The notes: generated from the letters alone by a model not told the origin. A DNA stretch of 6,329 bases from a virus (IMGVR_UViG_2547132488_000017:1-6329); one strand, 5' to 3'. Positions 4,338 to 4,581 are shown, counted from the stretch's first letter. Program-made: numbers and translations.

Positions 4338-4370
4338 ATTTCTCCATGCGTACGCAACAATTGGAGAAAT
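4338..4370 (+). promoter_or_regulatory. Perfect 9-bp inverted repeat enclosing the SD of the next ORF, with a nested 10-bp palindrome
   Basis: ATTTCTCCA (4338-4346) is the exact reverse complement of TGGAGAAAT (4362-4370), which contains the SD GGAGA (4363-4367) for the ATG at 4375. The intervening TGCGTACGCA (4347-4356) is itself a perfect palindrome. Could form an RBS-sequestering RNA hairpin or be a DNA operator. Confidence 0.45.
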
Positions 4371-4374
4371 ACGT

Positions 4375-4581
4375 ATGAAGTACTATGTTCACACTCTTGA
4401 AGATGCTCAGAACGATCACGAAGTTCATACAGAAACTTGTTTTCGACTTCCTGACGCAAACAATCGTAAGGAGCTGGGTGAGTTTAACTCATGCGAGCCA
4501 GCTGTGAGGGCTGCAAAAAATCTGGGCTACACAAGAGCAAATGGGTGTTACTGGTGCTGTAGAGATTGCCATACATCCTGA
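4375..4581 (+). CDS. Hypothetical small Cys/His-rich protein (68 aa)
   Basis: ATG 4375 with SD GGAGA at 7-nt spacing. 6 Cys and 4 His, including a C-terminal CYWCCRDCH cluster, suggesting metal binding. Followed by a terminator. No family recognised. Confidence 0.5.
   Translation: MKYYVHTLEDAQNDHEVHTETCFRLPDANNRKELGEFNSCEPAVRAAKNLGYTRANGCYWCCRDCHTS

What the first reader, a model, noticed from the sequence alone, without database searches (positions are those of the whole stretch)
4338..4377. RBS-occluding perfect inverted repeat with nested palindrome upstream of the first accessory ORF
ATTTCTCCA (4338-4346) and TGGAGAAAT (4362-4370) are exact reverse complements, and the right arm contains the SD (GGAGA) 7 nt before the ATG at 4375. 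As RNA this hairpin would sequester the ribosome-binding site, a device typical of tightly controlled genes (toxins, lysis genes, thermosensors). The 15-nt loop contains a second perfect palindrome TGCGTACGCA (4347-4356), so the element could alternatively be a nested DNA operator for a dimeric regulator.
Basis: seen in the sequence. Interest (0 to 1): 0.5.

Follow-up and report, generated by a model that had tools for sequence, protein, structure and literature searches.

The report
Read-through-silencing leader of a prophage gene
The inverted repeat is real and conserved by compensating changes, and it most likely lets a small prophage gene be translated only from its own oxygen-sensor (FNR)-type promoter, while transcripts reading in from the phage late operon fold back and hide the ribosome-binding site.

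Summary
On this sequence alone the hairpin is unremarkable (-12.5 kcal/mol, z -1.44). Comparison makes it significant. Sixteen sequence variants, from E. coli, Yersinia, Providencia, Morganella, Proteus and Mixta prophages, keep an anti-SD/SD stem with different arm sequences. These variants precede three unrelated small genes, one of them a second copy in this window (5437-5473). In swap tests the cognate halves fit best (0 of 20,000 permutations).

The repeat is only part of a larger cassette. An FNR-type site (ATGAT-N4-ATCAA, 4300-4313) lies exactly 29 nt from its centre to a TAnnnT hexamer (TAATTT 4336-4341) in 11 variants and 28 nt in two more, which is the class II -41.5 geometry. The predicted start (about 4346-4348) falls inside the repeat. 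The left arm is therefore -10/discriminator DNA and would be absent from the gene's own transcript (SD paired 0.33). It would be present in read-through late transcripts (SD paired 0.99).

Best reading (confidence about 0.5): IS10/sigG-type translational insulation against read-through. An RNA thermometer and a DNA operator are disfavoured. No transcription start has been measured. The element is a new member of a known kind.

The parts
4300..4313 (+). FNR-type binding site ATGAT-CATT-ATCAA (9 of 10 to TTGAT-N4-ATCAA), centred between 4306 and 4307. This is -41.5 if TAATTT is the -10. It contains GATC and overlaps an IHF-consensus match (TATCAATGAGTTA, 4308-4320).
   Evidence: It is the only match with at most one mismatch in the window (0.34 expected by chance). 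It is conserved with a variable N4 in 13 sequence variants, at a fixed distance from a TAnnnT hexamer. The consensus and the -41.5 rule come from PMC3688515. FNR binding itself was not tested.
4336..4341 (+). -10-like hexamer TAATTT (TAnnnT). The overlapping GATAAT at 4334-4339 is the alternative reading.
   Evidence: The hexamer starts 29 nt after the FNR-site centre in 11 variants and 28 nt in two, although the spacer sequence varies. In the positional profile, 14 of 16 variants have an xAxxxT hexamer with at least 4 of 6 matches ending 5-7 nt before the apical element, against 0-2 at nearly all other offsets; the exceptions are 22 nt and the FNR-box region at 36-42 nt, with 3-6. By my reading of the sequences printed, nearly all variants carry TAnnnT there (Morganella has CACTAT, an xAxxxT). 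The standard sigma-70 scan does not call a promoter here because there is no -35.
4346..4348 (+). Predicted transcription start of the gene's own promoter, 5-7 nt after the hexamer.
   Evidence: This is inferred from the hexamer position. The 7th nt is G in 14 of 16 variants, giving a 21-31 nt 5'UTR. It has not been measured.
4338..4346 (+). Left arm ATTTCTCCA, the anti-SD tract. As DNA it spans positions -10 to -2 of the predicted promoter.
   Evidence: It covaries with the right arm.
4347..4356 (+). Apical palindrome TGCGTACGCA. In RNA it forms a 3-bp mini-hairpin UGC/GCA capped by GUAC. It would lie at the 5' end of the gene's own transcript.
   Evidence: One search shows it in the MFE structure. 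Symmetric variants are TGTGTACACA (Proteus), TGCATATGCA (L191) and TGGGTACCCA (window 5448-5457). It is lost in L025 and L193.
4357..4361 (+). A-rich 3' bulge or linker ACAAT between the apical hairpin and the SD arm.
   Evidence: Its length and sequence vary (ACAAT, ACCAAA, AAAA).
4362..4370 (+). Right arm TGGAGAAAT, containing the Shine-Dalgarno GGAGA (4363-4367).
   Evidence: P(SD paired) is 0.99 in a -70..+20 transcript and 0.33 in a transcript starting at the predicted +1.
4370..4377 (+). TACGTATG, the 3' strand of a weaker alternative stem with CATGCGTA (4345-4352). That stem would cover the start codon and is mutually exclusive with the SD stem.
   Evidence: It scores -7.1 kcal/mol against -12.1. 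The equivalent 9-10 bp stem is the dominant structure in L021. Providencia keeps it through G.U switches (by hand).
4375..4581 (+). 68-aa Cys-rich ORF (phrog_4298 family), the regulated gene.
   Evidence: The stretch is unannotated ('none') in RefSeq E. coli genomes.
4604..4632 (+). Intrinsic terminator closing the cassette (stem 4604-4625 plus a T-run).
   Evidence: The same terminator type follows the gene in L013, L014, L016, L027, L033 and L192.
5437..5473 (+). Second, shorter copy of the leader: TAGAAT (5437-5442), anti-SD TCTCT (5444-5448), palindrome TGGGTACCCA (5448-5457), AAA, SD GGAGA (5461-5465) and ATG 5471, in front of an unrelated 71-aa ORF (5471-5686).
   Evidence: Relatives carry TCTCC, which turns the U.G pair into C-G. 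Model R2 detects the homologous copy only weakly (15.4 bits, E 0.37). P(SD paired) is 0.43 in the own transcript and 0.89 in read-through.

Best explanation
The repeat is the core of a portable expression cassette for small prophage accessory genes ('morons') placed inside the late operon.

At the DNA level, a CRP/FNR-family site (ATGAT-N4-ATCAA, 4300-4313) centred at -41.5 and a -10 hexamer (TAATTT, 4336-4341) form an activator-dependent class II promoter. This promoter starts transcription at about 4346-4348, at the palindrome. Its transcript begins with the small UGCGUACGCA hairpin, lacks the left arm and has a free SD, so the 68-aa protein is made. FNR would make this happen under anaerobiosis.

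Transcripts that enter from upstream, such as Q-antiterminated late transcription through the lysis genes, do contain the -10/discriminator sequence. As RNA that sequence is an anti-SD (AUUUCUCCA). It pairs with UGGAGAAAU and blocks ribosome binding, so the gene is translationally insulated from read-through.

What is shown here: the repeat exists, the SD pairing is predicted, the arms covary, and the geometry of FNR-like site, spacer and hexamer is conserved. What is inferred: the start site, FNR dependence, the existence and fate of read-through transcripts, and the effect on translation.
For: (1) SD pairing. P(SD paired) is 0.90-1.00 in 11 variants with different arm sequences, and shuffles of the 5' part rarely reach it. 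This gene's SD is the most paired among the window's starts with a clear SD.

(2) Covariation.
- The innermost pair switches between A-U and U-A.
- The -10 hexamer covaries with the SD-AUG spacer: TAATTT with AAAT in E. coli, TATTAT with ATAT in Providencia, Proteus and Morganella.
- C-G becomes U-A in Proteus.
- The L013 type uses a slipped register.
- In the swap test, cognate halves fold at -12.4 against -8.8 kcal/mol, 0 of 20,000 permutations.
- On the structure-aware alignment A8, 88.7% of cells pair against 75.8 +/- 2.1 in shuffles (0 of 500), and 45-58% when the partners are slid.
- RNAalifold predicts the same structure with a covariation term of -1.59.
- G.U pairs outnumber A.C by 13 to 3-4, which points to sense-strand RNA.

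(3) Promoter.
- The FNR consensus is matched 9 of 10.
- The distance from site centre to TAnnnT is 29 nt in 11 variants and 28 nt in two, with variable N4 and spacer sequence. This holds even in L018, L021 and L024, whose leaders differ.
- The hexamer position shows a sharp peak.
- G occupies the predicted +1 in 14 of 16 variants.
- 19 of 23 FNR-activated E. coli promoters have their sites at -41.5 +/- 4 (PMC3688515).

(4) Transcript dependence. Median P(SD paired) is 0.38 for own transcripts and 1.00 for read-through across 16 variants.

(5) Context. The cassette lies after lysis genes, has a terminator behind it, and is absent as a unit from phiSTEC1575-Stx2k and phiP27.

(6) Precedent. [quoted passage not shown] From my own knowledge, the same is known for IS10 and IS50 transposases.
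Against: - No transcription start has been measured. The standard sigma-70 scan finds no promoter at this site because no -35 is present, as expected for class II promoters but also for a non-promoter.
- One FNR-like match in 6.3 kb is not significant on its own (56 of 200 shuffles).
- The Providencia, Proteus and Morganella variants keep the hairpin and hexamer but have no FNR-like site. In Morganella and Proteus the scan finds promoter-like sites upstream of the whole hairpin, although such sites are as frequent in shuffles.
- Part of the hexamer overlaps the stem, so its conservation is partly confounded with the structure.
- Fixed-column covariation on plain alignments is not significant (77% against 75%). 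The A8 alignment was fitted to the structure, and symmetric one-column displacement of three rows inflates its count of changes on both sides.
- The variants are phylogenetically related, so the counts are not independent events.
- The loop sequence is more conserved than this model requires.
Confidence: 0.5

Rival explanations
1. Constitutive or trans-activated leader hairpin. The gene has no internal start; all its transcripts come from the late promoter or from a promoter upstream of 4338, and all carry both arms. The hairpin then keeps translation very low at all times, or until a trans-acting RNA or protein binds the conserved apical sequence UGCGUACGCAAC or the anti-SD arm and frees the SD.
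For: - The hairpin evidence is the same as for the best explanation.
- The apical sequence is identical from E. coli to Providencia and Morganella although the proteins are only about 59-66% identical, and the leader is as conserved as the CDS or more so.
- Promoter-like sites lie upstream of the whole hairpin in Proteus L033 and Morganella L192 (10 of 12 matches each).
- SD occlusion recurs across the protein family in distant taxa with unrelated leaders: 14 of 39 de-replicated clusters at P >= 0.9 against 15% of control ORFs, and median opening energy 9.2 against 4.5 kcal/mol.
- SD-sequestering 5'UTR stem-loops that act on the gene's own transcript are known, for example in IS200 tnpA (PMC4513863, listed).
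Against: - It does not explain the conserved FNR-like site at a fixed 29 nt from a TAnnnT hexamer, nor the hexamer's fixed position directly 5' of the anti-SD.
- The apical palindrome can be lost with the stem retained (L025, L193).
- No candidate partner sequence was found in the window.
- The upstream promoter-like hits are no more frequent than in shuffles.
Confidence: 0.25
2. By-product. Only the promoter (-10/discriminator) and the SD matter. Their complementarity reflects an AT-rich -10 facing an A-rich SD-AUG spacer and a CU-rich discriminator facing a purine-rich SD, and has no function as RNA.
For: - The single-sequence fold is not exceptional (z -1.44).
- Column shuffles keep 75% pairing because the arms are pyrimidine-rich and purine-rich respectively.
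- Homologues L018, L021, L023 and L024 keep the FNR-like site and the hexamer but not the SD stem.
Against: - Cognate halves fit better than any permutation.
- Sliding the partners by one column drops pairing from 89% to 46-51%.
- Compensatory changes link the hexamer with the spacer.
- The outer stem lengthens to 10-11 bp where the inner hairpin is lost.
- An independent second copy has the same layout.
- L021 and L024 occlude the start codon instead.
Confidence: 0.13
3. DNA operator. The nested palindrome TGCGTACGCA, or the whole nested repeat, binds a dimeric regulator at about +1 to +10 and represses the promoter.
For: - Perfect dyad symmetry is kept through symmetric double substitutions in three further versions. 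One of these (TGCATATGCA, L191) changes positions 4 and 7, which cannot pair in an RNA hairpin with a 2-nt loop.
- The position just downstream of a predicted -10 is typical for repressor sites (general knowledge).
Against: - Two different versions occur in one prophage, yet their variable positions stay complementary, as expected for base pairing rather than protein readout.
- Mixta has a 2-nt insertion at the centre.
- The palindrome is destroyed in L025 and L193 while the cassette persists.
- There is only one exact copy per promoter, and no other site in the window beyond the two leaders.
- The outer arms show G.U rather than A.C departures.
Confidence: 0.06
4. RNA thermometer. The A/U-rich stem melts at host temperature and frees the SD.
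For: The U-rich strand pairs with the SD, as in fourU elements, and six of the nine pairs are A-U.
Against: The stem is perfect, without the mismatches typical of thermometers. The predicted energy is -10.9 kcal/mol at 42 C, and P(SD paired) is 0.95 at 30 C, 0.98 at 37 C and 0.98-0.99 at 42-45 C. Homologues lengthen the stem to 10-11 bp.
Confidence: 0.03

Closest known systems
Fold-back inhibition of read-through transcripts in IS10/Tn10 and IS50 transposase genes (from my own knowledge: Davis, Simons and Kleckner 1985; Krebs and Reznikoff 1986; Schulz and Reznikoff 1991)
   Same: A sequence upstream of the gene's own transcription start is complementary to the ribosome-binding site. Only transcripts that start outside contain both arms, and those are not translated. 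The element sits in a mobile unit exposed to foreign transcription.
   Different: Here the unit is a prophage accessory-gene cassette inside a late operon, not a transposase gene. The own promoter looks activator (FNR)-dependent. An extra apical mini-hairpin is present. The start site and the effect on translation are only predicted.
B. subtilis sigG read-through hairpin and RBS hairpin (PMC5942855)
   Same: [quoted passage not shown] A conserved RBS-occluding leader hairpin is also described there.
   Different: The sigG read-through hairpin has more than 20 bp and involves different sequences. It belongs to a Gram-positive developmental gene and is not a portable cassette.
Class II FNR-activated promoters such as narG, dmsA, nirB and ydfZ (PMC3688515)
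   Same: A site resembling TTGAT-N4-ATCAA centred 41.5 bp upstream of the start, with a poor -35 hexamer and a recognisable -10.
   Different: FNR binding, anaerobic induction and the start site are untested. The first base of the left half-site is A, G or C rather than T. Another CRP/FNR-family or phage regulator could use the site.
IS200 tnpA 5'UTR stem-loop (PMC4513863, listed)
   Same: A short leader stem-loop sequesters the SD of a gene on a mobile element and keeps translation low.
   Different: In IS200 the hairpin is part of the gene's own transcript and works together with an antisense sRNA and Hfq. No antisense partner was found here.
Phage Mu com/mom translational control (from my own knowledge)
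   Same: A translation-inhibiting stem-loop covers the start region of a phage accessory gene, and a small Cys4 zinc protein is involved.
   Different: In Mu the small protein Com is the activator that binds next to the hairpin. Here the small Cys-rich protein is the regulated product and has no Pfam match at E <= 0.01, Com's family included. No binding was tested.

Membership tests
RBS-sequestering fold-back that insulates a gene from read-through transcription (IS10, IS50, sigG type) | The SD lies in a stem with an upstream complementary tract. | tested here: met
   A 9-bp perfect stem at -12.5 kcal/mol. P(SD paired) is 0.99.
RBS-sequestering fold-back that insulates a gene from read-through transcription (IS10, IS50, sigG type) | The pairing is maintained in relatives by compensatory change. 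| tested here: met
   Swap test 0 of 20,000. A8 gives 88.7% against 75.8% paired, 0 of 500. RNAalifold agrees. Plain alignments alone are not significant.
RBS-sequestering fold-back that insulates a gene from read-through transcription (IS10, IS50, sigG type) | The gene's own transcription start lies between the two arms. | tested here: inconclusive
   It is predicted from the conserved TAnnnT hexamer and the FNR-site geometry. No 5'-end data exist, and the standard scan calls no promoter.
RBS-sequestering fold-back that insulates a gene from read-through transcription (IS10, IS50, sigG type) | Read-through transcripts are translated much less than own transcripts. | not testable with these tools
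   Folding only: median P(SD paired) is 1.00 against 0.38.
Class II FNR-dependent promoter | A site matching TTGAT-N4-ATCAA. | tested here: met
   ATGAT-CATT-ATCAA matches 9 of 10. Matches of 8-9 of 10 occur in 13 variants.
Class II FNR-dependent promoter | The site is centred near -41.5 relative to the start. | tested here: inconclusive
   The centre lies 29 nt before the first base of a TAnnnT hexamer in 11 variants and 28 nt in two. This equals -41.5 only if that hexamer is the -10.
Class II FNR-dependent promoter | FNR binding and anaerobic, fnr-dependent activation. | not testable with these tools
   No data.
RNA thermometer (fourU or ROSE type) | The SD-containing stem melts between about 30 and 42 C. 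| tested here: not met
   In silico, P(SD paired) is 0.95 at 30 C and 0.98-0.99 at 42-45 C, and the stem is still -10.9 kcal/mol at 42 C.
Palindromic operator of a dimeric regulator | Conserved half-sites at fixed spacing, shared by sites in one genome. | tested here: not met
   Mixta has 2 extra nt at the centre. The palindrome is lost in L025 and L193. The window carries both TGCGTACGCA and TGGGTACCCA.
Any curated RNA family (Rfam 15) | A match to a covariance model. | tested here: not met
   No hit at 4290-4380 even at E <= 1. Only two tRNAs pass their thresholds in the window.
Intrinsic terminator | A G+C-rich stem followed by a U-run. | tested here: not met
   The scan does not call it. 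The stem is followed by ACGUAUGAAG.
IHF binding site | WATCAANNNNTTR with an upstream A/T tract. | tested here: inconclusive
   TATCAATGAGTTA at 4308-4320 is the only match in the window (0.30 expected; 53 of 200 shuffles have at least one). Reading the upstream sequences printed, the pattern is kept in most box-bearing variants. The ATCAA core is equally explained by the FNR half-site.

The most novel reading that the evidence does not exclude
Enterobacterial prophages carry a portable cassette that makes accessory ('moron') genes independent of the operon they are inserted into. It consists of an oxygen-responsive (FNR class II) promoter whose -10/discriminator doubles, in read-through RNA, as an anti-SD. 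The cargo is therefore expressed in the anaerobic gut from the lysogen but stays translationally silent during Q-driven late transcription. The same leader has been swapped between at least three unrelated cargo genes. It sits next to Stx2e and LT-II toxin genes in some prophages. It is not in Rfam.
Probability: 0.4. Interest if true: 0.65.

Novelty: new member of a known kind. Interest (0 to 1): 0.55.

Why it matters
Morons are usually pictured simply as promoter-gene-terminator units. How they avoid being swept into the massive, antiterminated late transcription of the host phage is rarely addressed. If this reading is right, it offers a simple sequence-level answer: translational insulation built into the promoter itself.

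It also predicts that a set of unannotated small proteins in Shiga-toxin-type and LT-II-type prophages is switched on by anaerobiosis through FNR. That prediction can be tested directly with reporter fusions and 5'-end mapping.

The work also flags a widespread, confidently folded, uncharacterised 68-aa Cys-rich protein family whose ribosome-binding sites are unusually often occluded.

Tried and rejected
- Rfam search of the whole window at E <= 1: nothing at the element.
- Plain MAFFT alignment, and a first covariance-model alignment with a fixed-register structure: pairing was no better than column shuffles. The L013 type uses a register slipped by one, and the arms are pyrimidine-rich and purine-rich. 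I replaced this with the alignment-free swap test and a second model.
- RNA thermometer: rejected by folding from 20 to 45 C.
- Translational coupling to the upstream small ORF: its stop codon (4314-4316) lies 22 nt before the stem, and L001 has a different upstream gene.
- Mini-uORF ATG 4346 to TGA 4376-4378 (MRTQQLEKYV, stop overlapping the main ATG): no start codon in the L001 type, a different frame or length elsewhere, and in frame with the gene in L025 (reading the upstream sequences). I treat it as incidental.
- Fur box, sigma-28, and a -35 hexamer for GATAAT: poor matches by hand.
- IHF: a consensus match that is not significant and is explained by the FNR half-site.
- cos site: phiP27 annotates cos between the HNH and terS genes, and phiP27 lacks the box.
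- A search for a second palindrome copy or an anti-anti-SD partner in the window found only the second leader.
- Searches of the phage and plasmid collections with the 82-nt leader gave nothing meaningful.

Full report
**Context.** The window is the late region of a phiP27-like lambdoid prophage. In order it holds:
- a DUF1133/Q-like antiterminator gene (3-557);
- a DNA methyltransferase (1137-2183);
- two tRNAs (2352-2502);
- two holins (3067-3459 and 3449-3724);
- an M15 endolysin (3721-4104);
- a small lipoprotein-like ORF (4119-4316);
- a run of small ORFs, all on the + strand.

The finding lies between the lipoprotein-like ORF and a 68-aa ORF (4375-4581), which is followed by an intrinsic terminator (4604-4625).

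**Observation.** The hairpin (a 9-bp outer stem plus a 3-bp UGC/GCA inner stem capped by GUAC) has an MFE of -12.5 kcal/mol. Its z-score is only -1.44, and 21 of 200 shuffles fold as well. A perfect 9-nt inverted repeat is not rare in 6 kb. On this sequence alone it could be chance. The downstream ORF is a real gene: a conserved family with invariant C22, C40, C58, C61 and C65, a match to phrog_4298, and an AlphaFold model with pLDDT 97.6.

**Comparative evidence for the RNA stem.** I collected homologous loci from E. coli genomes, IMG/VR, GTDB genomes, metagenomes and Logan assemblies. The arms differ between variants but stay complementary:

| Variant | Left arm / right arm |
|---|---|
| window | ATTTCTCCA / TGGAGAAAT |
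| L001 type | ATTTCTCCT / AGGAGAAAT |
| L025 | ATTTCTCCTT / AAGGAGAAAT |
| Yersinia L193 | an 11-bp version |
| L013 type | TTTCCTATG / CATAGGAGA (register slipped by one) |
| Providencia | TATTTCCT / AGGAGATA |
| Morganella | TATCTCTTT / GAGGAGATA |
| Proteus | TATCTCTT / AAGAGGTA |
| Mixta | a version with a bulge |

P(SD paired) is 0.90-1.00 in these variants, and shuffling the 5' part rarely reproduces it.

The same leader precedes an unrelated 87-aa gene in Stx2e-type prophages (L002). It is kept in that gene's relatives at 71%, 67% and 50% protein identity. A third, shorter copy lies in this window at 5437-5473, before another unrelated ORF.

The statistical tests gave mixed results, which I report in full:
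- A fixed-register count on plain alignments is not significant (77% against 75%).
- An alignment-free swap test is clear. Own halves fold at -12.4 kcal/mol against -8.8 for chimeras, and 0 of 20,000 permutations reach that.
- A second covariance-model alignment gives 88.7% paired cells against 75.8 +/- 2.1 in shuffles (0 of 500), and 45-58% when the partners are slid. Caveats: that alignment is fitted to the structure, and three rows are displaced symmetrically by one column.
- RNAalifold returns the same structure.
- G.U departures outnumber A.C by 13 to 3-4, which points to the sense RNA.

**The nested palindrome.** It exists in four perfect versions that differ by symmetric double changes:
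- TGCGTACGCA (this leader);
- TGTGTACACA (Proteus);
- TGCATATGCA (L191);
- TGGGTACCCA (window 5448-5457).

Every such palindrome in the loci I scanned for the pattern sits between an anti-SD and an SD. It is destroyed in L025 and in Yersinia, where the outer stem is longer. In Mixta it carries a 2-nt central insertion. Two versions coexist in this prophage. I therefore read it as a small RNA hairpin, not an operator. The one caveat is that the change at positions 4 and 7 in L191 is not explained by a hairpin.

**The wider cassette.** The 14-nt box ATGATCATTATCAA (4300-4313) is conserved regardless of the upstream gene. It stays conserved in homologues whose leaders differ (L018, L021, L024). 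It matches the FNR consensus TTGAT-N4-ATCAA at 9 of 10 positions (consensus from PMC3688515).

In 11 variants a TAnnnT hexamer begins exactly 29 nt after the site centre, and 28 nt after it in two more. N4 and the 23-nt spacer vary in sequence. That spacing places the site at -41.5, the position of 19 of 23 FNR-activated E. coli promoters. A positional profile shows the hexamer 5-7 nt before the apical element in 14 of 16 variants, against 0-2 at nearly all other offsets.

The predicted +1 is a G in 14 of 16 variants and falls at the start of the palindrome. A transcript from this promoter would lack that arm. P(SD paired) is 0.33 for such a transcript and 0.99-1.00 for a read-through transcript in the window; the medians across 16 variants are 0.38 and 1.00.

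**Mechanism proposed.** Own-promoter transcripts, probably FNR-dependent, are translatable. Transcripts entering from the late operon fold back and hide the SD. The compensatory link between the hexamer sequence (TAATTT or TATTAT) and the SD-AUG spacer (AAAT or ATAT) is hard to explain unless RNA containing both is under selection. This is the design known for IS10 and IS50 (from my own knowledge) and for sigG (PMC5942855). From established work on structured ribosome-binding sites (de Smit and van Duin, from my own knowledge), a -12 kcal/mol SD stem should cut initiation by orders of magnitude.

**Weak points.**
- No start site has been measured.
- The FNR-like match is not significant as a single site.
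- The Morganellaceae variants lack the FNR-like site.
- The standard promoter scan is silent here. It finds non-significant sites upstream of the hairpin in two genera.
- The variants are related to one another, so they are not independent observations.

**Rivals.**
- A hairpin present in all transcripts, acting as a constant damper or opened by a factor that recognises the very conserved apical sequence (0.25). This gains some support from a family-wide tendency to SD occlusion: median P 0.95 against 0.54 in controls, and 14 of 39 de-replicated clusters against 15%.
- A non-functional by-product of promoter and SD composition (0.13).
- A DNA operator (0.06).
- An RNA thermometer (0.03).

**Distribution and novelty.** The leader occurs in only 14 of 5,426 complete E. 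coli genomes, and the 68-aa ORF is unannotated there. Metagenome contigs L106-L108 encode the identical 68-aa protein and share the identical 110 nt upstream. There is no Rfam family. I file it as a new member of a known kind (read-through fold-back insulation, an RBS-sequestering leader), with an untested link to FNR and a portable, repeated layout.

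Noticed in passing
window 5437-5473: A second copy of the leader stands in front of an unrelated 71-aa ORF (5471-5686): TAGAAT, anti-SD TCTCT, perfect palindrome TGGGTACCCA, AAA, GGAGA, ATG 5471. The upstream in-frame ATG 5441 is not conserved (it is ATA in L209), so 5471 is the likely start.
   Followed up: partly
[not shown]
   Followed up: partly
loci L046, L049, L058, L069, L127, L128, L150 and others: Unrelated leaders of the same protein family in distant taxa also pair their SD with an upstream anti-SD, for example GACTCC/GGAGTC and GGCCTC/GGAGGCC. 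Median P(SD paired) is 0.95 against 0.54 for control ORFs. After de-replication, 14 of 39 clusters reach P >= 0.9, against 15% of controls. No phylogenetic correction was applied.
   Followed up: partly
window 4168-4203: A strong terminator-like hairpin (11-bp stem GGGCACTGGTA/TACTGGTGCCT plus TTTTTTATT) lies inside the coding sequence of the small lipoprotein-like ORF, in its signal-peptide part. It is conserved in L002 and phiP27. It could stop non-antiterminated transcription just upstream of the cassette.
   Followed up: no
window 4119-4316: This small ORF has a lipobox (LLVGC) and matches phrog_7528. It follows the endolysin where a spanin would be expected, but it has no obvious partner. 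Its last codons (..DHYQ*) are encoded by the FNR-like box. In phiP27 the homologue ends differently and the box is absent.
   Followed up: partly
window 4345-4352 with 4370-4377: An alternative 8-bp stem CAUGCGUA/UACGUAUG would cover the start codon (-7.1 kcal/mol) and is mutually exclusive with the SD stem. In L021 the equivalent 9-10 bp stem is the dominant structure, with the SD in the loop. This may explain the conserved TACGTATG before the start codon.
   Followed up: partly
window 4346-4378: A mini-ORF (ATG CGT ACG CAA CAA TTG GAG AAA TAC GTA TGA, MRTQQLEKYV) has a stop that overlaps the main ATG as ATGA. L002 keeps the same overlap with a 3-nt shorter spacer. The ATG would be at or next to the predicted 5' end, raising a leaderless-translation possibility. 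It is not conserved in the L001 type.
   Followed up: partly
window 4653-4671: The next gene's initiation region GGAGGTACGTATGTACGCA repeats TACGTATG and carries GTACGCA, which is complementary to the apical UGCGUAC of the leader. The same ATGTACGC start follows the cassette in Proteus L014. This may be coincidence.
   Followed up: no
L025 2172-3207; L002 1-858: In one contig the cassette lies just upstream of heat-labile enterotoxin type II genes (Enterotoxin_a and LT-IIB domains). In STEC276 the same leader, with the 87-aa cargo, lies downstream of stx2e and the lysis genes.
   Followed up: no
L018 and L019 469-810: In two Logan contigs the cassette sits upstream of the holin rather than after the lysis genes. 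It is next to a divergently oriented PmrD-family gene.
   Followed up: no
window 4301-4306: The FNR-like box contains a GATC (Dam) site, TGATCA, and the prophage encodes its own DNA methyltransferase (1137-2183). Methylation-sensitive binding is conceivable.
   Followed up: no
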